Source: a virus (Duplodnaviria > Heunggongvirae > Uroviricota > Caudoviricetes). From it: a stretch of 11,469 nucleotides of DNA. Each line of letters opens with the position of its first letter. Within the stretch, counting starts at the first letter, position 1. Shown here piece by piece: positions 1 through 11,469 of this stretch. Both the position numbers and the translations under genes were made by a program. The notes beneath the pieces were generated by a model, which saw only the letters and a list, made by a program, of their open reading frames with translations, was not told the DNA's origin and ran no database searches. Where the stretch lies: IMG/VR virus record IMGVR_UViG_2695420644_000002; one strand, given 5' to 3'.

Positions 1-1
1 G

Positions 2-154
2 GAAGCCTTCTCCGGACGCTCACAGGCTATCCGGGAAGCCGTCGGGGAAGACGCCTCGCTGAAATCCCGGGATGTGGCGGCACTGGATACGCGTAAATCC
101 AAACAGCACGTCGATCCTGAAGTCAGAATGGCTGAATGGATGCAGACGCTGTGA
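2..154 (+). CDS. 3' end of an unidentified ORF (partial, runs off the window start)
   Basis: Frame 2 is open from base 2 and translates [50 protein letters not shown] with TGA at 152-154. GC-rich third codon positions look coding. Product not recognised; a 50-codon open frame is not strongly significant by itself. Confidence 0.3.
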
Positions 155-393
155 GCAAGGTCACGGAAATCGTTACCAGTAATCCAGGCGATATAGAAAA
201 GTGTGTCGCCTTTTTTCACGGTATAGGTACTGCCGCTATAACTGCCTTTCGGAATGTTCCCATACTGACGGTTATAGACGATGCGTCCGTTTTCCATCTG
301 TACCGGCTGCTGAGCTACTGGCTGCACTGGCTGGATTTGCGGTTGTTGAGTAGCCTGAATTTGTGGCTGCTGTACCGGCTGAATTTGCGGTTG
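154..393 (-). CDS. nlpD: NlpD (LysM-domain murein hydrolase activator lipoprotein), internal fragment
   Basis: Minus-strand translation gives ...[80 protein letters not shown]: the Q/P-rich repeat tract followed by the LysM motif of E. coli NlpD. The match stops at both ends (N run at 396-398; divergence after DLA near 153). Confidence 0.8.
300..393 (-). repeat. Imperfect tandem repeats encoding the QPQIQPV tract inside the nlpD fragment
   Basis: Repeated units such as ctggatttgcggttg / ctgaatttgcggttg / ctgaatttgtggctg on the plus strand. This is a native feature of nlpD, not a separate element. Confidence 0.6.
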
Positions 394-400
394 CTNNNCG

Positions 401-1006
401 AATATGCTCGCGCTTAACCACTTGCATAAAACCGATATTGGCGCGCTCCGGAAAACGCTCGTGGCTTTCCAGAACAGGACCAAGCGTTTCTACCGCCGCG
501 GTATCGACATCATCGACCTGAATCACGCAATGCGGATTTCCCATCGACACCACGCCGCATAAGATTGTCTGCTCGGCGGCGCGCATAATATAGGTCTTTT
601 CCGCTTTGTTAGCGCGAAACGGCACGGCGGAAGGTTCGAAGTTGGGTTCGCCCATATTTACGCGGACCAGATCATCATCGGTGACGGTCAGAACCATCCG
701 CCCGTTGGCGGTGCTGACGCGGATATCACGCTTATTGGTCAGTCCTTTCAGACGCACAAAACGGGCAAAGCAGCGCGCACCGTTGCCGCACTGCGCCACT
801 TCACTGCCATCAGCATTGAAAATGCGATAGTGAAAATCCAGTTCAGGATCATACGGCGGCTCAACCACCAGCAGTTGGTCAAACCCTACCCCCAGGTGCC
901 GATCAGCCAGGCGACGAATCAGCTCCGGTGAAAAAAAGACATTCTGCGTTACCGCGTCGACGACCATAAAATCGTTGCCAAGGCCATGCATTTTCGAGAA
1001 CTGCAT
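401..1006 (-). CDS. dapF: Diaminopimelate epimerase DapF, 5' end intact, 3'-truncated at the N run
   Basis: Translation [80 protein letters not shown]...[10 protein letters not shown] matches E. coli DapF over about 200 residues. GGAG lies 6 nt upstream of the ATG at 1006. The frame runs into NNN at 396-398 and the sequence beyond is nlpD. Confidence 0.9.
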
Positions 1007-1042
1007 CATTTACTCCAATCACGCGGGTACAGAAACTGACTT

Positions 1043-1246
1043 TTAGTAATTCACCTGGGATGGACCATCGCCAGTGGCGCGATCGTTTTTATCCGGCACC
1101 GTGGATTGCGTTTGCGTCTCTACCGGTTTGGTCGGCGGCGGTGCGTTTTTATCTGCAGGCGGGAAATAGAGCGGACCTTTCAGACCGCAGCCCGTCAGGC
1201 TGAAGAGAGTAAGTAATACAGTGAGTGCCTTAAACACGTTTTTCAT
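1043..1246 (-). CDS. yifL: Small lipoprotein YifL
   Basis: 67-aa ORF MKNVFKALTVLLTLFSLTGCGLKGPLYFPP... with a lipobox (LTGC) and a Pro/Thr-rich tail, lying immediately upstream of dapF as in the E. coli yifL-dapF operon. Confidence 0.85.
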   Translation of the reverse strand: MKNVFKALTVLLTLFSLTGCGLKGPLYFPPADKNAPPPTKPVETQTQSTVPDKNDRATGDGPSQVNY

Positions 1247-1524
1247 TATGGATTGCCTGTAAAGTTCATCGCTTTCTGCTTTCTATCATCGCAGGAGAAG
1301 ACGTAAAAGCAAGCGTTTAGCGACTCTTTATGAAGTCTGAAAAGTGAGGAAATGCTGCGAGTATAACGCTTACTCGTGGGGATTTATGTTTTGCTGGTAG
1401 TTTCGTGATCGGCACCTCGCGCCAGGATGGCTTTATGCACTATCGCAATGTGGTTTGTTTGTTGTCTTTTTTAGTTCCGTCAGCGTGAGGATGCTCGCTC
1501 GGTAAACCTGATCATAATGTNNAN

Positions 1525-1677
1525 AAACGCTTGCTGTTGCCAGAACGGCAGTTCTCCGCCGCTTTCGTCACTGCTATTGAACGGCGAGTTGACGACATTG
1601 AGCGAGTCACCGCGTTTTTCAGAAAAGCCCATCGCCTCGCGGGTCAGATCTTCAATTTGCTTCATCTGTTCGTTGCT
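1525..1677 (-). CDS. fliF: Flagellar M-ring protein FliF, short internal fragment
   Basis: Minus-strand translation PLSNMKQIEDLTREAMGFSEKRGDSLNVVNSPFNSSDESGGELPFWQQQAF resembles the C-terminal region of enterobacterial FliF. Bounded by the N run at 1521-1524 and an in-frame stop at 1678-1680 that would not be present in an intact gene. Confidence 0.55.
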
Positions 1678-1680
1678 GAG

Positions 1681-2067
1681 AGGCTACGTGATGCAGATGC
1701 ACTGGTGGAAAAATCAATCTGGCTGATTGGTGGTGATGGCTGGGCTTACGATATCGGCTTTGGCGGTCTGGATCATGTATTGAGTTTGACGGAAAACGTC
1801 AACATTCTGGTGCTGGATACGCAATGCTATTCCAACACCGGTGGTCAGGCGTCGAAAGCGACACCGCTGGGTGCAGTAACTAAATTTGGCGAGCACGGCA
1901 AACGTAAAGCGCGTAAAGATCTTGGCGTCAGTATGATGATGTACGGTCATGTTTATGTGGCGCAGATTTCTCTCGGCGCGCAGCTGAACCAGACGGTGAA
2001 AGCGATTCAGGAAGCGGAAGCGTATCCGGGGCCATCGCTGATCATTGCTTATAGCCCGTGTGAAGAG
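1681..2067 (+). CDS. ydbK: Pyruvate:flavodoxin/ferredoxin oxidoreductase (PFOR), TPP-binding domain fragment
   Basis: Translation [98 protein letters not shown]...[12 protein letters not shown] carries the GDGW...YSNTGGQ thiamine-diphosphate motif region of PFOR. Only about 129 codons of a protein over 1100 aa are present, flanked by unrelated sequence. Confidence 0.7.
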
Positions 2068-3039
2068 TACTTTGGTCTGCTGTGAACCCAGGGTGATGAT
2101 GGTGGTATAGATCGCGCTGGAGAAGAAGCCCAGAGCGAGAATTGACCACGCCATATGTGCTGGTGTTCCGGTGTTAAAGACGTACATCAGAATCGCAGCC
2201 AGACCAGCCAGTACGGTCAGAATGCGTTGCAAATCAAAGAAGCGAAGAATAAAGCTGAACGCCCACATGCCGACCATGTATGACATCCAGAAGTTACTCA
2301 CCAGCGTGCCCGCGTCGTTCAGGCTCATGCCCAGGCCTTTGGCATACTCAGGCACCCAGGAGATAAAACCTAACTGACCGAGGATGTAGCACAACGCCGC
2401 AACAGAGAGAAACAGTACGCCGATCCCCCACTTTTCTTTCTCTACCGGAGCATCCGTTTTTGGCGCATGTTTGCCCAGCGCCGGGAACTCACAGCCGAAG
2501 GTCAGAATAAAAATAGCGACATCCACCAGCCCGATGCAGGCATAAACCCAGTACCACTCAATGCTGCGCGCCAGTAGAAACGCGGCGATCATTGGGAAAA
2601 TCATCCCAGCCATACTGAAGAAGGAGTCGGTAAATAACAGGCGGGAACCGCGCTGACGCCCTTCATACATTTGTGTTACCAGGAATGTACCAATCGACAT
2701 GGTGATGCCGCTGACCACCCCGAGAATGAACATCGCCGCCGAGAACAGCGCCAGGCTGTGGCTGAACATCAAACCGGCAACCGCCAGCACCATCAGGAGA
2801 AAGCCAAAACGTAACTGCGTTTTCAACGGGACGATTTCCATCAGCCAGGCGTTGAGGAAGATAGAGATTAAAATGCCGGCGTTGAGGAAGGTGAAGGTAT
2901 TACTCATACTGGAAACAGGCAGATTGAAATAATCGGCGATATTTCCCATCACCATCCCGGTGACAATAACCAACGCACCAGTCAGTGCGTAGGAGAGAAA
3001 GCTAATCCATGTGAGCTTGATGCGATTGCTGTTAGTCAT
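2068..3039 (-). CDS. tsgA: MFS transporter TsgA, 5' end intact, 3'-truncated
   Basis: Translation [44 protein letters not shown]...[16 protein letters not shown] matches E. coli TsgA for about 324 residues. The remainder of the computed 441-aa ORF is antisense to the ydbK fragment, so the gene is cut near 2067. Confidence 0.85.
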
Positions 3040-3691
3040 GATTGGCCTGCGTTCAAAAATAAAATGGCATAGCGGGATATGCCGCGAGCGGGCGATTTTA
3101 GGTGATTTTGTGATCTGTTTAAATGTTTTATTGCAATCGGTTGCTAAATTGCATTTTAAGAGTGGTGCCTCCAGGTGACGTTAACCAGTTAACAATTAAC
3201 GCCGGATACAGAGAATCCACCCATAACACTGTTTTTGGTTTTAACTGTTCCGCGTGCGCTCAGCCGCATTCACCACATCACAAAATTCACTTTAAAAAGG
3301 GCGGCAGAGCAGTCACGGAGTAAAACTGATACCGCCAAACGTCACCAGAAAATTGATAACAGAGGGCGTTGCAGCGGGGTTGTCACTTAAGCGTATGGTC
3401 AACCTGACAACCCGGTGTCCTCAACGGGGAANGNNTAACCCCGCCATACTTACCGCCGCGCCATTTCGCGGGTTGCCACAACCGGAAGCGCACGGTCGAC
3501 GAAAATTTAACGACAGGCTATCTATGAACCAGCTACCTCGCCGTGCGCTTTCGCGTTATGGTCTGACTTTTCAGGGAAATATCCTTTCAGTAAACTGTCA
3601 GTTCCGGATGCGCACCCGTGTCCGGCGCACGCACTCCACCTCACCCGTGGAGAACTCCTTAATTACTAACCTTAGCTTTGTTGATTAGCTA

Positions 3692-3910
3692 CTAACGCGG
3701 GTATGTAATCATTCTGGCAATGCTTAATGCCGCTGCTTTTTCCAGATTGGTGATATCCTGCTCCAGAGCGGACAGATTTTCAGCCTGCTTAGCCCTGGCT
3801 TCATTAGCCCATTTCAGATCCTGCGCTGCATTAATTTTCTGGCGCATCCACTCATAAAGTTCATCATCGGTATAGTCTGGCGCGATGATGACGGGTTCTC
3901 GTTTCTGCAT
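3692..3910 (-). CDS. Hypothetical prophage small protein (72 aa), predicted helical C-terminal half
   Basis: ATG at 3910 preceded by GAGGAA 7 nt upstream; product MQKREPVIIAPDYTDDELYEWMRQKINAAQDLKWANEARAKQAENLSALEQDITNLEKAAALSIARMITYPR. Last gene of a leftward three-gene string downstream of the repressor. Function not recognised; a size similarity to Rac KilR (73 aa) is only a coincidence-level hint. Confidence 0.55.
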   Translation of the reverse strand: MQKREPVIIAPDYTDDELYEWMRQKINAAQDLKWANEARAKQAENLSALEQDITNLEKAAALSIARMITYPR

Positions 3911-3939
3911 ACTGATTCCTCGCGGTGCTGTTTCGCTTA

Positions 3940-4068
3940 TCAGCCGTTAGATTTTGCCGAACTGGAAAGCGCCTGTTTAAACTCACTGAAGCTGAGAGCT
4001 TCTTCGCCTTCGGCAAGGCCTTCGAAGTATTCTTCGTAAGCCTTTTCCATGATTGTGTCGAAATCCAT
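3940..4068 (-). CDS. Hypothetical prophage small acidic protein (42 aa)
   Basis: Not in the supplied ORF track (below its length cutoff). ATG at 4068 with AGGTGAG 6-7 nt upstream and TGA at 3940-3942; product MDFDTIMEKAYEEYFEGLAEGEEALSFSEFKQALSSSAKSNG (10 acidic vs 3 basic residues). Starts 1 nt after the stop of the upstream ORF. Confidence 0.45.
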   Translation of the reverse strand: MDFDTIMEKAYEEYFEGLAEGEEALSFSEFKQALSSSAKSNG

Positions 4069-4069
4069 A

Positions 4070-4225
4070 TCACTCACCTGAGTTTCTTTCCAGCCAGCGA
4101 CGGGCACCATTTTCGGTTTTAAACGTTTTGCTTTTGGTATACGTCATTGCGGTGAACGTGCCGTCCTGGTTTGGAAACACGCCGTACACCAGAGATTCGT
4201 TGTTGCCAAGATCGATAGTATCCAT
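4070..4225 (-). CDS. Hypothetical prophage small protein (51 aa), Rac ydaF/ydaG-neighbourhood type
   Basis: Likely start is the ATG at 4225 with GAGG 5-8 nt upstream, giving MDTIDLGNNESLVYGVFPNQDGTFTAMTYTKSKTFKTENGARRWLERNSGE. The track ORF 4070..4303 begins at a TTG and is probably an over-extension. Confidence 0.5.
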   Translation of the reverse strand: MDTIDLGNNESLVYGVFPNQDGTFTAMTYTKSKTFKTENGARRWLERNSGE

Positions 4226-4303
4226 GCTGACCTCATTTCCCCTTAACGCTGGGGTAGCGGAACTGTTTGCTGAGAACACCGTGCGGTGTGTTGATGCAAA
4301 CAA

Positions 4304-4400
4304 GATTAGCCATGACTAACATATCGGTCAAGTGATTTTGTATGCTATAGCTAACATAATTGATGTGGTAAAAGATAACTCATTGATGATGTTATCTTTT
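4304..4400. promoter_or_regulatory. Operator/promoter-like region between the repressor gene and the leftward small ORFs (OL/PL-like), with a 10-bp inverted repeat over the repressor stop codon
   Basis: ATGACTAACA at 4312-4321 recurs at 4858-4867 on the other side of the repressor; GATTAGC at 4304-4310; TAGCTAACA at 4348-4356. Perfect inverted repeat AAAAGATAAC (4370-4379) / GTTATCTTTT (4391-4400) with an 11-nt loop. Possible leftward -35 TTGACC (minus strand, 4331..4326) and weak -10 TAATCT (4308..4303). Confidence 0.35.
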
Positions 4401-4799
4401 ATTTGTCCGCTGACGGGCTTTTAGTAATTCTTCAAAGAGTTTATTGAAGTTTTTTACTCGAGCTCGCATTTCGGCGAGCTGGGTATCCTGTTCTGATTCT
4501 GGCAGTGCATTAAACAGCTCAAGGAGCTCTAGTTCTTTGGGGGATAAGGCAACTGGCTTCTCAACAGGTGGTGTTGGTTGCTTGTCTTCATCGCCAAATA
4601 GAATCCATGTTGGTGAGCATTGCAATACTTTGCTGAGGGCAAAAAGGTTCTTCCCTGTAGGTTCACTATCACCCCGTTCCCATTGTGATACAGACACATG
4701 GGAGATTTTCAGGGCTTTAGCAAGAGACCTTTGGGTGTGTTTGAGGTTTTTCCGACGATACCTGATGCGTTCGCCGATAGTTAAATTTTTTGTTTCCAT
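4392..4799 (-). CDS. Prophage repressor, HTH XRE/cI-like (RacR-like), no peptidase domain
   Basis: 135-aa product METKNLTIGERIRYRRKNLKHTQRSLAKALKISHVSVSQWERGDSEPTGKNLFALSKVLQCSPTWILFGDE... shows the classic phage-repressor HTH signature (Q-x-x-V-S-x-WE-x-G...L-x-C-S-P-x-W-I/L). Divergent from a Cro-like gene across an 83-bp intergenic region containing palindromes. Confidence 0.8.
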   Translation of the reverse strand: METKNLTIGERIRYRRKNLKHTQRSLAKALKISHVSVSQWERGDSEPTGKNLFALSKVLQCSPTWILFGDEDKQPTPPVEKPVALSPKELELLELFNALPESEQDTQLAEMRARVKNFNKLFEELLKARQRTNKR

Positions 4800-4882
4800 A
4801 GTTAGCTAATGCTAAATCGTATTGACTATGTTTTTGTTAACATCTATCTTGTTAGTTATGACTAACAATAAAGGTGTTTTAA
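4800..4882. promoter_or_regulatory. Divergent promoter/operator region between the repressor and the Cro-like gene (OR-like)
   Basis: Candidate rightward sigma70 promoter: -35 TTGACT 4822-4827, 17-bp spacer, -10 TATCTT 4845-4850, then AAGGTG 6 nt before the ATG at 4883. Perfect inverted repeat TTGTTAG-N6-CTAACAA at 4849-4868 overlaps the -10. Palindrome TTAGCTAA at 4802-4809 abuts the repressor start codon. Confidence 0.5.
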
Positions 4883-5113
4883 ATGCTTAAAACTGACGCT
4901 CTTTTGTATTTCGGTTCAAAAACAAAACTTGCACAAGCAGCAGGTATTCGTTTGGCTTCGCTTTATAGCTGGAAAGGGGATTTAGTTCCCGAAGGTCGCG
5001 CGATGCGTCTACAGGAGGCATCTGGCGGGGAGCTTCAGTATGATCCCAAAGTTTATGATGAATATCGTAAGACGAAGCGGGCGGGGCGGTTGAACAATGA
5101 AAATCACTCCTGA
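4883..5113 (+). CDS. YdaS-family Cro-like HTH protein
   Basis: 76-aa product MLKTDALLYFGSKTKLAQAAGIRLASLYSWKGDLVPEGRAMRLQEASGGELQYDPKVY... fits the YdaS/Cro-like pattern (KLA..G.....L..W......P...A..L......GG.L). First rightward gene opposite the repressor, with an AAGGTG RBS. Confidence 0.65.
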   Translation: MLKTDALLYFGSKTKLAQAAGIRLASLYSWKGDLVPEGRAMRLQEASGGELQYDPKVYDEYRKTKRAGRLNNENHS

Positions 5114-5618
5114 ACAGGCTCGTGAGGCTCTGGATGCCTGGATATGTCGACCAGGAATGACACAGGAGCAGGCGACGATATTAATCACTGAAGCATTCTG
5201 GGCTTTGAAAGAGCGCCCGAACATCGATGTTCAGCGTGTCACATATGAAGGTGGCGCGATTGATCAGCGAGCGCTTGGCGTTAATCGAGTGAAGATATTT
5301 GAACGCTGGAAGGCTATCGACACCAGGGATAAGCGTGAAAAGTTCACGGCGCTAGTGCCTGCAATTATGGAGGCTATCCGGATTAATGATTTCAGGTTGT
5401 ATCGTGAAATTACTGACGGAAAAAGCATCACGTGCATGATCGCCGGGTTAAACAAAGAATATGGCGATGTGGTGGAGTCCGGACTGCTTTTTGCTGATCC
5501 TGCCGTAGTGGATCGTGAAACTGACGAACTTATAGAAAAAGCAATTGCTTTCAAACTTGCGTATCGACAGCAATACCAACAAAAAGCTGGATGGAATTAT
5601 GAGCCTTCTTTTTGCTGA
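5097..5618 (+). CDS. YdaT-family protein (prophage cII-position regulator, reported toxic on ectopic expression in Rac)
   Basis: 173-aa product MKITPEQAREALDAWICRPGMTQEQATILITEAF...VKIFERWKAIDTRDKREKFTALVPAIMEAI... aligns with my recollection of K-12 YdaT (MKI...W..P.G...KIF.RW....LLPAI). Overlaps the preceding gene by 17 nt and the next by 20 nt. Confidence 0.6.
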   Translation: MKITPEQAREALDAWICRPGMTQEQATILITEAFWALKERPNIDVQRVTYEGGAIDQRALGVNRVKIFERWKAIDTRDKREKFTALVPAIMEAIRINDFRLYREITDGKSITCMIAGLNKEYGDVVESGLLFADPAVVDRETDELIEKAIAFKLAYRQQYQQKAGWNYEPSFC

Positions 5619-6203
5619 ACGCCCACTGGTTATAAACACGCAGCTGGCAATGAAAATTGGCTTAAACGAAGCCATTGTTTTGCAACAACTGCACTACTGG
5701 TTGAGAGATACCAACTCCGGCATGGAATGTGATGGTGTTCGCTGGATTTATAACACAACGGAACAATGGCTGGAACAGTTCCCATTCTGGTCAGAGTCAA
5801 CGTTAAAGCGCGCGTTTGCAAGTCTGAAAACGCTGGGGCTTTTGCGTTGTGAAAAGCTCAATAAATCAAAGCGCGATATGACCAATTTCTACACGATCAA
5901 CTATGGGAGCGAGCTTTTAGATGGTGGCAAATTGAGCGAATCCATCGGTTCAAAATGCGCCGCTCCATCAGGTCAAAATGACACGATGGAAGAGGTCAAA
6001 ATGAAACGCTCCATTGGTTCAAAACGACCCAATGTCATCGGGTCAAAATGGCCTGATGATCTTACAGAGAATACAACAGAGATTACTACAGAGAATAAAA
6101 ACACTTTTCGTCCGGAAGCTTCGCAACCGGACCCGCAGACGACTGAACAGGATTTTTTAACCCGGAACTCCGACGCGGTTGTGTTTAGTGCGAAAAAACG
6201 CCA
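5599..6203 (+). CDS. Lambda O-like replication initiator (Rac ydaU position), 3'-truncated at N 6204
   Basis: Probable start ATG 5599: MSLLFAERPLVINTQLAMKIGLNEAIVLQQLHYWLRDTNSG...LKTLGLLRCEK..., an N-terminal winged-helix-like domain followed by a low-complexity linker encoded by the iteron array (repeated IGSK motifs). The track ORF starts further upstream at 5545. The frame continues into unrelated terminase sequence after the N at 6204. Confidence 0.6.
5941..6099. repeat. Iteron array: five direct repeats at 23-24 bp spacing plus three 12-bp repeats (candidate prophage replication origin inside the O-like gene)
   Basis: Core TCAAAATG at 5950-5957, 5973-5980, 5996-6003 and 6043-6050, with variant TCAAAACG at 6019-6026; unit consensus about tccatcGGTyCAAAATGac. 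Followed by ACAGAGA(A/T)TA repeats at 6064, 6076 and 6088 in a 68% AT stretch. Confidence 0.6.
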
Positions 6204-6205
6204 NA

Positions 6206-6592
6206 GGGGCATCCGTCTACGGAAAGCCTGTGGCCAGCATGCCACGTAAGCGAAACAAAAACGGGGTTTACCTTACCGAAATTGGTACGGATACCGCGAA
6301 AGAGCAGATTTATAACCGCTTCACACTGACGCCGGAAGGGGATGAACCGCTTCCCGGTGCCGTTCACTTCCCGAATAACCCGGATATTTTTGATCTGACC
6401 GAAGCGCAGCAGCTGACTGCTGAAGAGCAGGTCGAAAAATGGGTGGATGGCAGGAAAAAAATACTGTGGGACAGCAAAAAGCGACGCAATGAGGCGCTCG
6501 ACTGCTTCGTTTATGCGCTGGCGGCGCTGCGCATCAGTATTTCCCGCTGGCAGCTGGATCTCAGTGCACTGCTGGCGAGCCTGCAGGAAGAG
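6206..6592 (+). CDS. Lambda-type terminase large subunit (gpA-like), C-terminal fragment
   Basis: Translation ...KPVASMPRKRNKNGVYLTEIGTDTAKEQIYNRFTLTPEGDEPLPGAVHFPNNPDIFDLTEAQQLTAEEQVEKWVDGRKKILWDSKKRRNEALDCFVYALAALRISISRWQLDLSALLASLQEE matches the C-terminal region of phage lambda terminase large subunit as I recall it. Bounded by N at 6204 and NN at 6594-6595, so it lacks both its N-terminal ATPase part and its last ~25 codons. Confidence 0.8.
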
Positions 6593-6595
6593 ANN

Positions 6596-7255
6596 GCCAT
6601 GCTCGACTATCCGGAAGTGGTCGTGCGCTTAACGCTGTGGTGTATCGTTGTTGGCCTCTATCCAACCTTGCTGATGACGTTAATCGGCGTGCTGTGGTTT
6701 CCCAGTCGTGCCATTTCGCAAATGCATCAGGCGCTTAATGATCGGCTTGATGATGCCATTAGTCACCTGACAGACAGCCTCGCACCGCTACCCGAAACGC
6801 GGATTGAAAGAGAGGCGCTGGCGCTACAAAAACTCAATGTCTTTTGCCTCGCGGACGATGCCAACTGGCGAACTCAAAACGCATGGTGGCAAAGCTGCGT
6901 GGCAACGGTAACCTACATTTACTCGACGCTGAATCGCTACGATCCCACCTCTTTTGCTGATTCTCAGGCAATTATTGAATTCCGACAAAAATTAGCTTCA
7001 GAAATCAACAAGCTGCAGCATGCCGTTGCTGAAGGTCAGTGCTGGCAAAGCGACTGGCGGATCAGTGAAAGTGAAGCGATGGCGGCACGGGAATGTAACC
7101 TGGAGAATATCTGCCAGACGTTGTTACAACTGGGTCAGATGGACCCGAATACGCCGCCAACGCCCGCAGCCAAACCGCCATCAATGGCCGCCGATGCTTT
7201 TACCAATCCAGACTATATGCGCTACGCGGTAAAAACGCTGCTCGCCTGTTTGATC
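6596..7255 (+). CDS. FUSC-family (fusaric acid resistance / aromatic acid exporter-like) inner membrane protein, internal fragment
   Basis: Translation AMLDYPEVVVRLTLWCIVVGLYPTLLMTLIGVLWFP...PDYMRYAVKTLLACLI: a hydrophobic segment, a long soluble linker, then the characteristic start of the second membrane domain. Which E. coli paralogue is not determinable from memory. Confidence 0.55.
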
Positions 7256-7258
7256 NGT

Positions 7259-7873
7259 TGCGCCGTAGCCCTGTACCACGTTCAGCACGCCCGCCGGAAT
7301 ACCGGCTTCCAGCGCCAGCTCACCCAGGCGGTCAGCGGTCAGCGGGGAGAGTTCTGACATCTTCAGCACCGCAGTATTGCCCAGCGCAAGACACGGCGCG
7401 ACCTTCCATGTGGCGGTCATAAACGGCACGTTCCACGGCGATACCAGCGCACAAACGCCTACCGGTTGCACCAGCGTGTAGTTGAGCATCTTGTCGTCAA
7501 CCGGATAGGTCTTGCCGTTCATCTGCTGGCAGACTTCCGCGAAAAATTCAAAGTTGTGAGAAGCGCGTGGGATCAACACATTTTTGGTCTGATGGATCGG
7601 CAGGCCCGTGTCCGCGGTTTCCATCGCGGCGATCTCAGGCACGTTCTGGTCGATCAGATCGCCCAGACGGCGCATCAGGCGCGCACGCTCTTTCATCGGC
7701 AGATTGGCCCATTTCGGGAACGCCTCTTTCGCTGCCGCTACCGCCTGATTGATCTCCGCTTCACCGCCAGAGGCCACATCCGCCAGCACTTCACCCGTCG
7801 CCGGATTGGTGGTCTGGAAGTAGTCGTTACCTGCAACATTTTTGCCGTTGATCCAATGATTTACTTTTTTCAT
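7259..7873 (-). CDS. hpaE: 5-carboxymethyl-2-hydroxymuconate semialdehyde dehydrogenase HpaE, N-terminal ~205 codons (3'-truncated at N 7256)
   Basis: Translation MKKVNHWINGKNVAGNDYFQTTNPATGEVLADVASGGEAEINQAVAAAKEAFPKWANLPMKERARLMRRLGDLIDQNVPEIAAMETADTGLPIHQTKNV...VVQGYGA matches HpaE of the E. coli 4-hydroxyphenylacetate meta-cleavage operon. GAGGAA RBS; start ATG overlaps the hpaG stop (ATGA at 7870-7873). Confidence 0.9.
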
Positions 7874-9159
7874 TTCGCTGTTTCCTCACTCACAATTCGG
7901 TTCACCAGGCAGCCCACGCCTTCTACTTCCACCACTACTTCATCGCCAGGCACCACGTCAGATAAGCCTTTTGGTGTGCCGGTGGCGATCATGTCGCCCG
8001 GATTCAGGGTCATAAATTCGCTTAAGTAGGCGATCAGGAAGGGCACGCTGAAGATCAGATCGGCGGTGGTGCCTTGCTGGCGTAACTCGCCGTTGACGAA
8101 GGTGCGAAGGGTCAGATTATGCGGGTCCGGGATCGCCTCTTTCGGCACGATGGTTGAAAGCATCGGCGTCAGTCCGTCGCGGCTTTTTACCCGCAGGTTA
8201 GGGCGGTAGTAGTTTTCCAGATAGTCGCGAATGGCGTAGTCGTTACACACGGTGTAGCCCGCGACATAATCCATGGCATCGGCTTCGCTGACGTTACGCG
8301 CCTGTTTGCCAATAACTACCACCAGCTCCGCTTCATAGTGCATGTATTCAATATTGTTTGGACGCACGGAGGTCTGGTTATCGCCAGTGAGGGTATTTGG
8401 CGCTTTCAGGAACACCAGCGGTTCTTCCGGTGGCTTAAATTCCAGTTCGCTGGCGTGGTCGGCGTAGTTCAGGCCGAGGGCAAACAGCGTGCCGTGCGGG
8501 TGTGGCTGCGTTGGGAAGCTCTTGCGCGTGGTCACTTCACGTTCGTCCACTACCGGATTTTCCAGCGGCGGGAAACCTTCTGCGAGAACACGAACGCGAT
8601 CGCCTGGCTGTATTTCCACGCGCGCCTGTGGCGTGCCGAGCAGAATGGCATCGCCTGGATTCAGTGTGGCAAATTCGCTCAGGGCGCTCAGCAACTGCGC
8701 GGCGTTACGTTGTAAATCGGCGGTATTCCAGTGATCGGCAGGACGCCCGTTGATCTCGGTATAGATGGTCAGATTATCGACATTGCTGAGAGCCACGGTT
8801 TCGCCAATGGGGCAGAATCCATCACGACATTTTGCTTTGATTGCCGGGCGGTAAAAGCTCTCTTCCGGCAGGCTGACGTCGTTAGCCAGCGCATATCCGG
8901 CGATGTACTCTGCCGCATCTTCTTCACGTACTTTCGTCGCCGTTTTTCCCACAATCAGCGCAACAGTCGCACCGCTCAGTACCTTTTCACCCTGTGGAAA
9001 GGGAATCGGTTCACCGCAACCAATCACCGTATTGCGCGGTTTAATAAACCAGACCGCAGTTTTAGGCGGGGCTTTGTAGGGGGATTGCTGGAACGCTTCC
9101 TGCCATGCATCAAGTTGGCTGCGATGGTTCAACGCTACGGCGAAGATAGTGCCTTTCAT
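7870..9159 (-). CDS. hpaG: Bifunctional 2-oxo-hept-3-ene-1,7-dioate isomerase / 5-carboxymethyl-2-oxo-hex-3-ene-1,7-dioate decarboxylase HpaG (complete, 429 aa)
   Basis: Translation MKGTIFAVALNHRSQLDAWQEAFQQSPYKAPPKTAVWFIKPRNTVIGCGEPIPFPQGEKVLSGATVALIVGK... with two FAH-like repeats. ATG at 9159 has GAGGAG 5 nt upstream; the track ORF adds two codons from a GTG at 9165. Length matches HpaG. Confidence 0.9.
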   Translation of the reverse strand: MKGTIFAVALNHRSQLDAWQEAFQQSPYKAPPKTAVWFIKPRNTVIGCGEPIPFPQGEKVLSGATVALIVGKTATKVREEDAAEYIAGYALANDVSLPEESFYRPAIKAKCRDGFCPIGETVALSNVDNLTIYTEINGRPADHWNTADLQRNAAQLLSALSEFATLNPGDAILLGTPQARVEIQPGDRVRVLAEGFPPLENPVVDEREVTTRKSFPTQPHPHGTLFALGLNYADHASELEFKPPEEPLVFLKAPNTLTGDNQTSVRPNNIEYMHYEAELVVVIGKQARNVSEADAMDYVAGYTVCNDYAIRDYLENYYRPNLRVKSRDGLTPMLSTIVPKEAIPDPHNLTLRTFVNGELRQQGTTADLIFSVPFLIAYLSEFMTLNPGDMIATGTPKGLSDVVPGDEVVVEVEGVGCLVNRIVSEETAK

Positions 9160-9430
9160 TACCACTCCTCGGATTCGATCATCTTAATCATTAATATGTT
9201 AATGATTACTTTTATTCCCGATTGCGTAGTTTGGCAAAAGTAAGTGATGTAAATGTGATCTAATTAACAAACTATTTACATTTAAGGATAATAAAATATT
9301 AAATATCAGTAAGTTAATAAAATATCATCAATTTTGATAAAATCAGGAATTGCAGGGGCAGCGCAGTCCCGGTAACGTGACGATTAACTGTTTCTATATT
9401 AATGATTTTGAATTTTTCAGGGGAAAGATA
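9160..9430. promoter_or_regulatory. hpaG-hpaR divergent control region: HpaR operator-like palindrome, CRP-like site, AT-rich tract
   Basis: Perfect inverted repeat TAATCATTAA-TATG-TTAATGATTA at 9185-9208 just upstream of hpaG. CRP-like TGTGA-N6-TAACA at 9254-9269 (one mismatch to TGTGA-N6-TCACA). The whole region is strongly AT-rich. Confidence 0.55.
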
Positions 9431-9877
9431 ATGCACGACTCACTAACCATTGCGTTGCTCCAGGCGCGAGAAGCGGCGATGAGTTATTTTCGCCCAATCG
9501 TTAAACGGCATAATTTGACTGAGCAACAGTGGCGCATCGTGCGTATTCTGGCGGAAAGCCCATCAATGGATTTTCACGATCTGGCGTATCGCGCCTGCAT
9601 TTTGCGCCCAAGCCTGACCGGGATCCTCACGCGGATGGAACGCGACGGTTTAGTGTTGCGATTAAAGCCGATCAATGATCAGCGGAAGCTCTATATCTCG
9701 CTGACCAAAGAGGGGCAGGCGCTGTATAACCGCGCCCAGACACAGATTGAAGAAGCCTATCGGCAGATTGAAGCTCAGTTTACTGCCGAGAAAATGCAAC
9801 AGTTAACCCATCTGCTAGAGGAATTTATTGCTCTGGGTAATTCCCGACAAGAAGACATCCCGGGCGATAATGAATAA
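9431..9877 (+). CDS. hpaR: MarR-family repressor HpaR of the homoprotocatechuate (hpa) meta operon (complete, 148 aa)
   Basis: Translation MHDSLTIALLQAREAAMSYFRPIVKRHNLTEQQWRIVRILAESPSMDFHDLAYRACILRPSLTGILTRMERDGLVLRLKPINDQRKLYISLTKEGQALYNRAQ..., a MarR-type winged helix, divergent from hpaG. ATG at 9431 preceded by AGGGGAAAG; the track ORF starting at 9350 is an upstream over-extension. Confidence 0.9.
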   Translation: MHDSLTIALLQAREAAMSYFRPIVKRHNLTEQQWRIVRILAESPSMDFHDLAYRACILRPSLTGILTRMERDGLVLRLKPINDQRKLYISLTKEGQALYNRAQTQIEEAYRQIEAQFTAEKMQQLTHLLEEFIALGNSRQEDIPGDNE

Positions 9878-9904
9878 CTTTTTAGTATCTGATAACCAGC
9901 GCNT

Positions 9905-10861
9905 GAAACATGGCATTACGACTTCCATCATCGGCGCGGAGTGATTGTTGAAGGCGGCAAGATGAGTAACCTTGATGCGATGGATATTACCGCGCCGTAT
10001 ACGCCTGGAGCGCTGCGCGGCGGCAGCCATGTGCATGTCTTTAGCCCGAACGGTGAAAGGGTGAGCTTTACCTATAACGACCATGTAATGCATCAACTCG
10101 ATCCGGCGCTGGATTTGCGAAACGTCGGTGTTGCTGCACCGTTTGGCCCGGTCAATGTACAAAAGCAGCATCCGCGTGAGTACAGTGGTAGCCACTGGTG
10201 CGTGCTGGTGAGTAAAACCACGCCCACGCCGCAGCCAGGCAGTGATGAAATCAATCGTGCTTATGAAGAAGGATGGGTAGGAAATCACACGCTGGCGTTT
10301 ATTGGCGACACACTTTCGCCAAAGGGCGAGAAAGTGCCGGAGCTGTTTATCGTTGAGTTACCGCAAGATGAAGCTGGCTGGAAAGCGGCAGGTGATGCGC
10401 CGTTAAGTGGAACGGAAACCACCCTGCCCGCGCCACCGCGCGGCGTCGTGCAGCGACGTTTAACCTTTACCCACCATCGGGCTTATCCGGGGTTAGTCAA
10501 CGTCCCGCGCCACTGGGTGCGCTGTAATCCGCAGGGTACGCAAATCGCGTTTTTAATGCGTGATGATAACGGCATTGTGCAACTATGGCTTATCTCGCCA
10601 CAGGGCGGCGAGCCGCGCCAGTTAACCCATAACAAAACGGATATTCAGTCTGCATTTAACTGGCATCCATCAGGAGAATGGTTGGGCTTTGTGCTGGATA
10701 ATCGAATTGCTTGTGCCCATGCGCAAAGCGGCGAGGTTGAGTATTTAACCGAAAACCACGCCAATCCGCCTTCTGCGGATGCCGTGGTCTTCTCACCGGA
10801 TGGTCAATGGCTGGCGTGGATGGAAGGTGGCCAGCTGTGGATCACCGAAACTGATCGCTAA
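9905..10861 (+). CDS. yidR: YidR-like DUF3748 beta-propeller protein, 5'-truncated at N 9903
   Basis: Frame is open from 9896 through the N with no plausible start until the internal GTG at 9941 or ATG at 9962. Translation ETWHYDFHHRRGVIVEGGKMSNLDAMDITAPYTPGALRGGSHVHVFSPNGERVSFTYNDH...GQWLAWMEGGQLWITETDR; convergent with yidQ. The yidR symbol is from memory of the K-12 yidQ neighbourhood. Confidence 0.6.
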   Translation, partial: ETWHYDFHHRRGVIVEGGKMSNLDAMDITAPYTPGALRGGSHVHVFSPNGERVSFTYNDHVMHQLDPALDLRNVGVAAPFGPVNVQKQHPREYSGSHWCVLVSKTTPTPQPGSDEINRAYEEGWVGNHTLAFIGDTLSPKGEKVPELFIVELPQDEAGWKAAGDAPLSGTETTLPAPPRGVVQRRLTFTHHRAYPGLVNVPRHWVRCNPQGTQIAFLMRDDNGIVQLWLISPQGGEPRQLTHNKTDIQSAFNWHPSGEWLGFVLDNRIACAHAQSGEVEYLTENHANPPSADAVVFSPDGQWLAWMEGGQLWITETDR

Positions 10862-10862
10862 A

Positions 10863-11195
10863 TCAGTTATCAGGCATTCTGGCCGGTGGAATAACCGCAT
10901 TGGTGGCTTGCGCGTTGGCTTCGCTTTTTTCAACGCGTGAGCGCACCGAGCTGTCTTTGCGGAACACATCCCACGGCAGTAAAAGCGTGTCCATCACAGC
11001 GGTAAACGGCATATCGAGAATCGCCAGCGACTTAGTGCCCCAGTTGGTTTCATCGTCGCCAATCATGGTGGCGCTGGCGCGGGTGCCGGGATACGTTCCT
11101 TCTTTCCCCCCGGTATGGGACATCACGCTGGAGCATCCTCCGAGTAATGTCATTCCGCTGCATATCATGAACGCTAACAACACATTTCTTATCAT
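10863..11195 (-). CDS. yidQ: Outer-membrane lipoprotein YidQ (DUF1375), complete 110 aa
   Basis: Real start is the internal ATG at 11195: MIRNVLLAFMICSGMTLLGGCSSVMSHTGGKEGTYPG... with signal peptide and lipobox (LGGC). The 34-codon N-terminal extension in the track ORF (from 11297) is not supported. Stop codon lies 1 nt from the yidR stop. Confidence 0.8.
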   Translation of the reverse strand: MIRNVLLAFMICSGMTLLGGCSSVMSHTGGKEGTYPGTRASATMIGDDETNWGTKSLAILDMPFTAVMDTLLLPWDVFRKDSSVRSRVEKSEANAQATNAVIPPARMPDN

Positions 11196-11382
11196 AATAA
11201 ATTCATCTGTTGATCGTGGGTGTTGGCCTGATGAGTTATAGCGATCCCTTGCTGAAAATAACATCATCATTACGTCGCTCTGTGGCGGCAATCGCACTTT
11301 AACGTTTCGTGCTGCCCCCTCAGTCTATGCAATAGACCATAAACTGCAAAAAAAAGTCCGCTGATAAGGCTTGAAAAGTTCA

Positions 11383-11469
11383 TTCCAGCCGCTTGTTCAG
11401 TACATGGTAAAGACGCTGAGTTTCAACCTGATAACGTTCAATAGCGTAAGGAATGGTTTGGGGGGCTGC
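11383..11469 (-). CDS. yfcG: GST-like disulfide-bond oxidoreductase YfcG, short internal fragment (29 codons, runs off the window end)
   Basis: Minus-strand translation AAPQTIPYAIERYQVETQRLYHVLNKRLE matches my recollection of an internal YfcG segment, which continues NSPWLGG in the native protein. Here it is followed instead by TGA and the yidQ upstream region, so the gene is cut at about 11383. Confidence 0.55.

What the first reader, a model, noticed from the sequence alone, without database searches (positions are those of the whole stretch)
4800..4882. OR-like operator: perfect palindrome TTGTTAG-N6-CTAACAA over the putative Cro-like promoter
The inverted repeat at 4849-4868 overlaps the candidate -10 (TATCTT 4845-4850) of the rightward promoter (-35 TTGACT 4822-4827). 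A second palindrome TTAGCTAA (4802-4809) abuts the repressor start codon. The 10-mer ATGACTAACA (4858-4867) is repeated exactly at 4312-4321 beyond the other end of the repressor gene, the arrangement expected for operator sets on both sides of a cI-like gene.
Basis: seen in the sequence. Interest (0 to 1): 0.5.

Follow-up and report, generated by a model that had tools for sequence, protein, structure and literature searches.

The report
Known DicA operator of Qin prophage

Summary
Every sequence element in the finding is present at the stated coordinates. Window 4200-4900 is identical, apart from one synonymous base, to the dicC-dicA-ydfA region of the Qin cryptic prophage of E. coli K-12 MG1655.

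The palindrome at 4849-4868 is the reverse complement of TTGTTAGTCATAACTAACAA. That sequence is operator Oc, which Yun et al. 2012 (PMC3441716) showed to be bound by DicA using:
- an in vivo operator-swap assay;
- a single-base mutant that abolishes binding;
- EMSA with crude extract;
- 5'RACE of the dicC promoter.

The 10-mer at 4312-4321 lies in the −10/spacer of the leftward promoter dicBp. It belongs to an Oc-like site, which I call OL1 (4303-4322). A second such site, OL2 (4338-4357), sits upstream of the −35.

Comparison with seven relatives, including the annotated P22 OR/OL, supports this in two ways. The layout is co-linear across them. In seven of the eight loci, including this one, the operator type found on the cro side recurs on the other side of the repressor gene.

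TTAGCTAA is part of Oa, the equivalent of P22 OR3, and is not an operator in its own right. Yun et al. report that DicA alone did not bind Oa.

A third exact copy of the 10-mer is the start of tsgA and is a chance match.

Verdict: real, correctly interpreted, already known.

The parts
4849..4868 (.). Operator Oc (equivalent of P22 OR1): TTGTTAG-TTATGA-CTAACAA. This is the DicA binding site. It covers the last 2 nt of the dicCp -10 and the transcription start.
   Evidence: It is identical (reverse complement) to the Oc sequence TTGTTAGTCATAACTAACAA tested by Yun et al. 2012. The inactivating A>C mutant, Oc*, maps to window 4853. The arms vary at 1 of 14 columns in 6 E. coli variants (2 of 14 when Citrobacter and Serratia are added), against 3 of 6 (4 of 6) in the spacer.
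4822..4850 (+). dicC promoter dicCp (PR-like): -35 TTGACT 4822-4827, 17-bp spacer, -10 TATCTT 4845-4850. The inferred +1 is at about 4857.
   Evidence: Consensus scan. Yun et al. report a consensus dicC promoter, a -10 that overlaps Oc, and a 5'RACE +1 lying 11 nt after the -11 A. The coordinate 4857 is my inference from that statement. The -35 is invariant and T1, A2 and T6 of the -10 are kept in all relatives.
4824..4843 (.). Om (the slot of P22 OR2): in the dicA-sense strand, ATGTTAACAAAAACATAGTC. It has one good half-site (TGTTAA), and the other arm overlaps the dicCp -35.
   Evidence: It lies at -43 from the repressor ATG, the same position as the annotated P22 OR2. It matches the Oc pattern at only 7 of 14 positions, counted by eye. 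Yun et al. report no DicA binding (data not shown). I assigned the coordinates by co-linearity and could not check them against Bejar 1988.
4799..4818 (.). Oa (the slot of P22 OR3): TAGTTAG-CTAATG-CTAAATC.
   Evidence: It matches the Oc pattern at 10 of 14 positions. It lies at -18 from the ATG, as P22 OR3 does, and by my count shares 13 of 18 bases with P22 OR3. It varies at 1 of 20 columns among E. coli variants. Yun et al. report no DicA binding.
4392..4799 (-). dicA: a 135-aa repressor with an HTH_3 domain like the N-terminal domain of P22 C2. It has no peptidase (self-cleavage) domain.
   Evidence: Pfam HTH_3 1.3e-16 and Phage_CI_repr 7.5e-6, and nothing after residue 74. PDB chains of the P22 C2 N-terminal domain match at 8e-20 to 2e-19. 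RefSeq annotates it as dicA.
4883..5113 (+). dicC: a 76-aa Cro-like protein.
   Evidence: Pfam P22_Cro 1.7e-11. RefSeq annotates it as dicC.
5097..5618 (+). YdaT-family gene in the cII position, the second gene of the rightward operon controlled by Oc.
   Evidence: Pfam YdaT_toxin 4.5e-5. It is annotated cII in phage PhiR42_1.
4303..4322 (.). OL1: in the dicA-sense strand, ATGTTAG-TCATGG-CTAATCT.
   Evidence: It matches the Oc pattern at 10 of 14 positions. It occupies the same position as the annotated P22 OL1. The arms vary at 1 of 14 columns against 2 of 6 in the spacer.
4338..4357 (.). OL2: in the dicA-sense strand, ATGTTAG-CTATAG-CATACAA, just upstream of the dicBp -35.
   Evidence: It is the second-best match to the Oc pattern, 11 of 14, both in the window (tied there with one other site) and in the whole of phage PhiR42_1. 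It lies 35 bp from OL1, the same spacing as in P22 and 5 other relatives.
4303..4331 (-). dicBp (PL-like promoter of ydfABC-dicF-dicB): -35 TTGACC (4331-4326), 17-bp spacer, -10 TAATCT (4308-4303).
   Evidence: Read from the minus strand. It is co-linear with the annotated P22 PL, TTGACC-N17-TAAATT. Both hexamers are invariant in 6 E. coli variants. Deleting dicA raises dicBp-lacZ 22-fold (PMC10448788). The hexamer assignment is my inference; the consensus scan did not list it because the -10 matches only 3 of 6 positions.
4070..4225 (-). ydfA, the first gene of the dicBp operon.
   Evidence: Pfam DUF1391 5e-28. RefSeq coordinates were transferred from ATCC 8739.
3299..3350 (-). DicF sRNA, a downstream product of the dicBp operon that OL1 and OL2 control.
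   Evidence: Rfam RF00039, 76.7 bits, E = 6.5e-16.
4370..4400 (.). Perfect 10-bp inverted repeat AAAAGATAAC-N11-GTTATCTTTT over the dicA stop codon. It looks like a terminator hairpin separating dicA from dicBp.
   Evidence: Read from the sequence. In two natural variants the changes at 4380 and 4388-4390 lengthen the stem. The function is inferred.

Best explanation
The region 4799-4868 is the OR-type control region of the Qin (Kim) cryptic lambdoid prophage of E. coli.

Published, on a sequence identical to this one:
- A DicA dimer, whose HTH domain resembles the N-terminal domain of P22 C2, binds the 20-bp palindrome Oc (4849-4868).
- Bound there, DicA represses dicC and activates the weak divergent dicA promoter.
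- DicA represses dicBp, keeping the toxic division inhibitors DicF and DicB silent.
- DicA lacks a self-cleavage domain. It is inactivated by the antirepressor Rem, by high temperature or urea, or by Cnu(K9E)/H-NS.
- DicA and DicC form a bistable switch.

Inferred here:
- Oc runs from about -8 to +12 of the dicC promoter, so bound DicA blocks RNA polymerase.
- DicA also binds two Oc-like sites, OL1 and OL2 (4303-4322 and 4338-4357). They bracket the -35 and cover the -10 of dicBp.
- DicC (Cro-like) then acts on the same operator set, probably with a preference for Oa/Om, to shut off dicA.
For: Identity of the locus:
- Window 4200-4900 equals MG1655 Qin apart from one synonymous base.
- The region carries dicA, dicC and ydfA annotations at 100% identity in many genomes.
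- Oc is letter for letter the operator of Yun et al..

Published experiments:
- Oc cloned as the sole operator confers DicA-dependent repression in vivo.
- The Oc* point mutant abolishes this. Mutations clustered in Oc were also the only way the promoter fragment could be cloned on multicopy plasmids.
- Crude-extract EMSA shifts a 90-bp fragment.
- dicC rises 700-fold when dicA falls 10-fold, and dicA promoter activity needs DicA.
- Reg-Seq recovers the DicA site at dicC.
- Deleting dicA raises dicBp 22-fold. DicC is needed for stable switching, and Rem derepresses.

My tests:
- The half-site is concentrated in the two intergenic regions (P = 7.5e-6).
- In a 48.7-kb intact relative, the best two matches to the pattern are Oc and OL2.
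- The operator slots are co-linear with the annotated P22 OR1-3 and OL1-2 in 8 loci.
- Each relative's OR1-type sequence recurs as two sites about 35 bp apart in its own OL region. At most 1 of 1000 shuffles reaches this in 7 of 8 loci. The match is weaker in loci of other specificity.
- In natural variants, the arms of Oc, OL1 and OL2 vary at 3 of 42 columns against 9 of 18 in the central spacers (Fisher P = 4e-4).
Against: - No footprint with purified DicA exists in the papers I could read. The EMSA used crude extract because DicA was insoluble.
- The exact DicA site at dicBp is called 'unknown, low evidence' by the Reg-Seq authors. OL1 and OL2 are therefore sequence and comparative predictions.
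- DicA did not bind isolated Om or Oa in vivo (data not shown), so a three-operator cooperative model of the lambda type is not established.
- A 2025 preprint pulled down ArcA and YgbI, not DicA, on a dicCp repressor site.
- The variant analysis rests on 6 related E. coli sequences, which are not independent.
Confidence: 0.93

Rival explanations
1. Oc acts as the only functional DicA operator on the cro side. Om and Oa (including TTAGCTAA) are vestiges of a P22-like ancestor, or are sites used only by DicC. The switch would then be a simplified one-operator version of the lambda/P22 OR, not a three-operator cooperative one.
For: [quoted passage not shown]
- Om matches the Oc pattern at only 7 of 14 positions, and its poor arm is the dicCp -35.
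- DicA has a different C-terminal part from P22 C2: 135 aa against 216 aa, with no Pfam hit after residue 74. Cooperativity of the C2 type therefore cannot be assumed.
Against: - Om and Oa are the least variable parts of the intergenic region among E. coli variants, with 0 of 20 and 1 of 20 variable columns. They also keep their slots in all relatives. This conservation may, however, be due to the overlapping -35, the dicA promoter and the start codon.
- The negative result was 'data not shown', and each site was tested alone, where weak cooperative sites would fail.
Confidence: 0.35
2. The palindrome works mainly as a site for host regulators (ArcA, whose half-site is TGTTA, or YgbI, or the Cnu/H-NS complex) and not for DicA.
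For: - A 2025 Reg-Seq preprint found ArcA and YgbI enriched by DNA chromatography on a dicCp repressor site, and a motif match to ArcA.
- TGTTA occurs at 4836 and 4850 on the plus strand.
- Cnu(K9E)/H-NS antagonises DicA at Oc.
Against: - Oc-dependent repression in vivo disappears in a dicA deletion and is restored by a DicA plasmid.
- The two direct TGTTA copies are 14 bp apart, not the 11 bp typical of ArcA boxes (that figure is from my own knowledge).
- The operator sequence changes together with the repressor type in relatives. That is expected for a phage repressor site and not for a host factor site.
Confidence: 0.05
3. The inverted repeat acts as an RNA hairpin in the dicC leader, as an attenuator or a stability element, and not as a DNA operator.
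For: RNA 4840-4882 folds to -11.8 kcal/mol, z = -3.4 against shuffles, using the palindrome arms.
Against: - The published dicC start lies inside the palindrome (inferred at 4857). Only the right arm is transcribed, and RNA from 4857 on folds no better than shuffles (z = -0.6).
- Variants change the spacer but never make compensatory arm changes: the arms simply do not vary.
Confidence: 0.02

Closest known systems
Operator Oc of the dicA-dicC intergenic region, Qin (Kim) cryptic prophage, E. coli K-12 (Bejar et al. 1986 and 1988; Yun et al. 2012, PMC3441716)
   Same: It is the same 20-bp sequence in the same position, between identical dicA and dicC genes. Both intergenic regions are 100% identical to MG1655.
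   Different: Nothing in the element itself differs. In this window, the gene after dicC is a full-length YdaT-family gene, as in ATCC 8739, W and phage PhiR42_1, and not the K-12 ydfX/ydfW remnants.
OR1-OR2-OR3 and OL1-OL2 of Salmonella phage P22 (C2 repressor and Cro)
   Same: - The repressor and cro genes are divergent.
- The operator slots lie at about -68/-66, -43 and -18 from the repressor ATG.
- The PR -35 TTGACT is in the same place.
- PL is TTGACC-N17-TAAxxT, with one operator over the -10 and one 35 bp upstream.
- The DicA N-terminal domain is 59% identical to that of C2.

   Different: - The half-site is TGTTAG with a 6-bp centre, instead of ATTTAAG with a 4-bp centre.
- Om is degenerate.
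- I could not find a convincing third OL site; a terminator-like hairpin occupies that slot.
- DicA lacks the RecA-cleavable C-terminal domain and is controlled by an antirepressor.
Lambda OR/OL with CI and Cro
   Same: The logic is that of a bistable switch. The repressor blocks the cro promoter and activates its own. The same operator type recurs at the leftward promoter. Cro reinforces the induced state.
   Different: - There is no sequence similarity between the operators.
- Activation of dicA is attributed to DicA at Oc, the operator farthest from dicA, and not to the middle operator.
- Induction is through Rem or stress and not through RecA cleavage.

Membership tests
DicA operator Oc of prophage Qin | The 20-bp sequence TTGTTAGTCATAACTAACAA lies between divergent dicA and dicC. 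| tested here: met
   Window 4849-4868 is its exact reverse complement. The flanking genes are annotated dicA and dicC at 100% identity. The alignment with MG1655 is identical across the region.
DicA operator Oc of prophage Qin | The site overlaps the -10 and the start of the dicC promoter. | tested here: met
   The -10 TATCTT at 4845-4850 overlaps Oc by 2 nt. The published 5'RACE and -11A statement places +1 at about 4857, which is my inference.
DicA operator Oc of prophage Qin | DicA binds it in a sequence-specific way. | not testable with these tools
   This is published for the identical sequence: an in vivo operator assay, the Oc* mutant and a crude-extract EMSA. I found no purified-protein footprint.
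Lambdoid (P22-type) immunity-region operators | The repressor and cro genes are divergent, with a short intergenic region that carries both promoters. | tested here: met
   dicA is at 4392-4799 on the minus strand and dicC at 4883-5113 on the plus strand, 83 bp apart. Pfam gives HTH_3/Phage_CI_repr for dicA and P22_Cro for dicC.
Lambdoid (P22-type) immunity-region operators | There are three tandem operators of one sequence family on the cro side. | tested here: inconclusive
   The three slots are co-linear with the annotated P22 OR1-3. Oc matches its pattern at 14 of 14 positions, Oa at 10 of 14 and Om at only 7 of 14 (and my count). DicA did not bind Om or Oa alone.
Lambdoid (P22-type) immunity-region operators | The same operator family is repeated at the leftward early promoter beyond the repressor gene. 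| tested here: met
   OL1 is at 4303-4322 and OL2 at 4338-4357, around TTGACC-N17-TAATCT. The own-OR1 against own-OL test is reached by 0 of 1000 shuffles, and the same holds in 6 of the 7 relatives.
Lambdoid (P22-type) immunity-region operators | The repressor carries a LexA/S24-type self-cleaving C-terminal domain, giving SOS induction. | tested here: not met
   DicA is 135 aa with no peptidase domain in Pfam. The literature reports that it lacks the Ala-Gly site and is relieved by the antirepressor Rem. This concerns the repressor class and not the operator.

The most novel reading that the evidence does not exclude
The Qin switch may be a structurally reduced variant of the P22/lambda OR. 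DicA would use a single strong operator (Oc) both to repress dicC and to activate dicA from an unusually distant position. The fully conserved but DicA-refractory Oa/Om sites (including TTAGCTAA) would be DicC-specific. Asymmetry would then be encoded by half-site type (ATTTAG against TGTTAG) and not by graded affinity for one protein. A variant of this reading is that Oc and OL1/OL2, 546 bp apart, are bridged by DicA through its non-C2 C-terminal domain.
Probability: 0.25. Interest if true: 0.3.

Novelty: already known. Interest (0 to 1): 0.08.

Why it matters
It matters little as a discovery. The element, its binding protein and its regulatory logic have been in the literature since 1986-1988 and were tested in 2012 and 2023.

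The result is useful as a calibration, because a reader working from raw sequence alone correctly recognised a real operator and its partner sites.

One modest addition is made here. Comparative evidence places the DicA sites at dicBp, which controls the toxic division inhibitors DicB and DicF, at 4303-4322 and 4338-4357. A recent regulatory survey listed the location of this site as unknown.

Tried and rejected
- RNA-hairpin reading of the palindrome. The published transcription start lies inside it, and RNA from that start folds no better than shuffles.
- Third copy of the 10-mer at 3030-3039. It is the tsgA start codon, on a segment unrelated to Qin.
- TTAGCTAA as an independent 8-bp operator. 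It is not kept in the more distant relatives, whereas the TTAG-N6-CTAA register of Oa is.
- A third operator on the dicBp side. No site with 9 or more of 14 matches lies upstream of OL2; the slot holds an inverted-repeat hairpin. The literature summary speaks of three operators there, and I could not resolve this.
- Original papers. Bejar 1986 (PMC311701) is not held and Bejar 1988 is in a subscription journal. The Om and Oa coordinates are therefore my assignment by co-linearity with P22, not the authors' own.
- The genome-contig scan with DicA returned only 6 loci. Relatives came mainly from a tblastn search of the phage collection.
- Hairpins in the ydfA leader and a palindrome over the dicC ATG were folded. 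Neither is thermodynamically remarkable.
- An ArcA-box reading of the TGTTA repeats. The spacing does not fit, and repression depends on DicA.

Full report
**1. The observation**

Reading the window confirms every element at the stated coordinates:
- TTGTTAG-TTATGA-CTAACAA at 4849-4868.
- TTGACT at 4822-4827 and TATCTT at 4845-4850, with a 17-bp spacer. This is the only sigma-70-like site the consensus scan reports in 4150-4950.
- TTAGCTAA at 4802-4809.
- ATGACTAACA at 4858-4867 and 4312-4321.

A perfect 7-N6-7 palindrome alone is weak evidence. The window holds four, against 0.68 expected from shuffles. What lifts this one above chance is its context.
- It is the only 14/14 match to its own pattern in the window.
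- The next-best matches (11/14 and 10/14) include three sites in the two regions that flank the repressor gene.
- Four of the seven exact TGTTAG/CTAACA hexamers fall in those 250 bp (binomial P = 7.5e-6).

The 10-mer has a third exact copy at 3030-3039 on the minus strand. That copy is the Met-Thr-Asn start of tsgA, on a segment that is not linked to this prophage in real genomes. It is a chance match.

**2. What the locus is**

- Window 4200-5300 is 100% identical to many E. coli chromosomes, where the genes are annotated ydfA, dicA, dicC and a YdaT-family protein.
- It is 99.8% identical to the intact phage PhiR42_1, where the same genes are annotated cI, Cro and cII.
- Window 4200-4900 differs from K-12 MG1655 by one synonymous base in dicA. 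Both intergenic regions are identical to MG1655.
- Pfam gives HTH_3/Phage_CI_repr for the 135-aa repressor and nothing beyond residue 74. It gives P22_Cro for the 76-aa divergent gene, YdaT_toxin for the next gene, and DUF1391 for ydfA.
- The solved structures closest to DicA are the N-terminal domain of P22 C2.
- DicF RNA lies downstream on the minus strand at 3299-3350.

This is therefore the immunity region of the Qin (Kim) type cryptic lambdoid prophage. The Qin-type dicA-dicC intergenic region is present in 851 of 5,426 complete E. coli genomes.

**3. What is already published about this exact sequence**

Yun et al. 2012 (PMC3441716) give the operator Oc as 5'-TTGTTAGTCATAACTAACAA. This is the exact reverse complement of window 4849-4868. 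They report the following.
- The 122-bp promoter fragment could only be cloned on multicopy plasmids with point mutations clustered in Oc.
- Oc placed as the sole operator before an rpsL reporter gave repression that was lost in a dicA deletion and restored by a DicA plasmid.
- The A>C mutant Oc* (TTGTTAGTCATAACTCACAA), which maps to window 4853, abolished this repression.
- A crude-extract EMSA shifted a 90-bp fragment only when DicA was induced. DicA was mostly insoluble, so no purified-protein assay was done.
- The 5' end of dicC mRNA was mapped by 5'RACE, and the -10 overlaps Oc.
- dicC rises about 700-fold when dicA falls 10-fold, and dicA promoter activity requires DicA.
- Two further operators predicted from sequence by Bejar et al. 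1988, Om and Oa, did not bind DicA when tested alone (data not shown).

Other papers add to this.
- Reg-Seq treats the DicA site at dicC as a gold standard and recovers it. The same authors call the DicA site at dicB 'low evidence, location unknown'.
- Ragunathan et al. 2023 (PMC10448788) show that deleting dicA raises dicBp-lacZ 22-fold. They also show that DicC is needed for stable spontaneous switching, that the Qin antirepressor Rem relieves DicA, and that DicA lacks the RecA cleavage site.

**4. Independent tests done here**

(a) Co-linearity with P22.
- I stacked the region upstream of the repressor ATG for Qin, Citrobacter (73% DicA identity), Serratia (64%), PPompW (63%), BUCT708 (62%), HannyBb (57%), phiES15 (52%) and P22.
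- Palindromic sites appear in the same three slots, at about -68/-66, -43 and -18. These are exactly the annotated OR1, OR2 and OR3 of P22, which span -66 to -1.
- The cro-promoter -35 (AGTCAA on this strand) is invariant in position.
- In Qin the slots are Oc (window 4849-4868), Om (4824-4843) and Oa (4799-4818).
- The TTAG-N6-CTAA register is what BUCT708 and PPompW keep, not the 8-bp palindrome.

(b) The other side of the repressor gene.
- On the dicA-sense strand the sequence reads ATGTTAGCTATAGCATACAA-aatcac-TTGACC-gat-ATGTTAGTCATGGCTAATCT.
- That is a PL-like promoter, TTGACC-N17-TAATCT, co-linear with the annotated P22 PL, TTGACC-N17-TAAATT.
- One Oc-like site lies over the spacer and -10 (OL1, 4303-4322). 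Another lies upstream of the -35 (OL2, 4338-4357).

(c) Co-variation.
- The operator type differs between relatives:
  - TGTTAG..CTAACA in Qin, Citrobacter and BUCT708 (one arm is TGTAAG in Serratia);
  - CCTTAG..CTAAGG in PPompW;
  - ATTGAG..CTCAAT in HannyBb;
  - ATTAAAG..CTTAAAT in P22.
- Each locus's OR1-type sequence finds two sites about 35 bp apart in its own OL region. At most 1 of 1000 shuffles reaches this in 7 of 8 loci, and the score is lower in loci of other specificity.

(d) Natural variation.
- In six E. coli variants with 90-100% identical intergenic regions, the arms of Oc, OL1 and OL2 vary at 3 of 42 columns against 9 of 18 in the central spacers (Fisher P = 4e-4).
- Both promoters' -35 hexamers and the dicBp -10 are invariant.
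- The 10-mer itself is not conserved (ATGGCTAACA in several variants). The identity of the two copies in this window is therefore partly incidental, while the arm CTAACA is the conserved unit.

- In the 48.7-kb PhiR42_1 the best two matches to the Oc pattern are Oc and OL2.
- OL1 and Oa are among ten sites scoring 10/14.
- TTAGCTAA occurs once, within Oa.
- The 10-mer occurs three times: in OL1, in Oc, and as an isolated half-site inside the antirepressor gene rem.

**5. Mechanism**

Published for this sequence: DicA binds Oc, represses dicC, activates dicA and represses dicBp, and DicA and DicC behave as a bistable switch.

Inferred here:
- Oc spans about -8 to +12 of dicCp. I place +1 at about 4857 from the published statement that the -11 A lies 11 nt before the mapped start.
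- DicA represses dicBp through OL1 and OL2.
- DicC prefers Oa/Om, by analogy with Cro at OR3.
- A possible dicA -10, TAGCAT (window 4814-4809), sits where the annotated P22 PRM -10 lies. Its poor -35 fits the need for activation.

**6. Rivals**

- A reduced, one-operator switch with vestigial or DicC-only Om and Oa is compatible with the published negative binding result. On the other hand, Om and Oa are the most conserved parts of the intergenic region. That could equally reflect the overlapping -35, dicA promoter and start codon.
- Host factors such as ArcA or YgbI were pulled down on dicCp in a 2025 preprint. However, repression through Oc depends on DicA, and the operator co-varies with the phage repressor.
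- An RNA hairpin is excluded, because transcription starts inside the palindrome.

**7. Comparison and novelty**

The element is not merely similar to a known operator: it is the known operator. In architecture it is a P22-type OR/OL set with three differences:
- a different half-site (TGTTAG with a 6-bp centre, against ATTTAAG with a 4-bp centre);
- a degenerate middle operator;
- a repressor without a self-cleavage domain.

Novelty: already known. The only modest addition is comparative support for the positions of the DicA sites at dicBp.

**8. Caveats**

- I could not read Bejar 1986 or 1988. The Om and Oa coordinates and the count of two, not three, dicBp operators are my own assignments.
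- The variant set is small and phylogenetically related.
- The window itself is a patchwork of unlinked E. coli segments. The whole control region lies inside one intact segment, 3163-6209, so the finding is unaffected.

Noticed in passing
window 1-11469; N runs at 396-398, 1521-1524, 3432-3435, 6204, 6594-6595, 7256, 9903: The window is a patchwork of E. coli segments that are unlinked in real genomes: dapF/lptM (399-1520), tsgA (about 2060-3162), Qin immunity region (3163-6209) and hpaG/E/R (7257-9905). None of 5,426 complete genomes holds 80% or more of the window in one place. Several junctions coincide with short N runs. The 441-aa 'MFS' ORF at 1714-3039 is a chimera that begins with tsgA. 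dicB is absent, because the Qin homology stops 38 bp upstream of its start.
   Followed up: partly
window 3299-3350 (-): A complete DicF sRNA gene (Rfam RF00039, 76.7 bits), downstream of ydfC in the dicBp operon.
   Followed up: yes
window 4370-4400: A perfect 10-bp inverted repeat, AAAAGATAAC-N11-GTTATCTTTT, spans the dicA stop codon. In two natural variants the changes at 4380 and 4388-4390 extend the stem (GATAACGCA...TGCGTTATC). It is probably a bidirectional terminator-like hairpin that insulates dicA from dicBp.
   Followed up: partly
window 4237-4252 and 4278-4291 (transcribed from the - strand): The ydfA leader holds two small hairpins, ACACCGCACGGUGU and CCCCAGCGUUAAGGGG. They sit where P22 has nutL. 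They are identical in PPompW and HannyBb, and Citrobacter and phiES15 have different sequences there that still form a hairpin. One E. coli variant loses one base on each side of the second stem. The folding energy is not better than shuffles.
   Followed up: partly
window 4876-4893: A perfect 7-N4-7 palindrome, GTTTTAAATGCTTAAAAC, is centred on the dicC start codon. RNA folding from the dicC start is unremarkable (z = -0.6), and one variant breaks an arm without compensation.
   Followed up: partly
L015 (phage PhiR42_1) 15228-15238: The 11-mer TTGTTAGTCAT, which is the left arm of Oc plus four spacer bases, occurs inside rem, the gene for the DicA antirepressor. The other arm is absent, so it is only a half-site and possibly a chance match.
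   Followed up: partly
window 4883-5618 compared with L014 (MG1655): Here, as in ATCC 8739, W and phage PhiR42_1, dicC is followed by a full 173-aa YdaT-family gene in the cII position. K-12 has only the short ydfX and ydfW remnants there.
   Followed up: no
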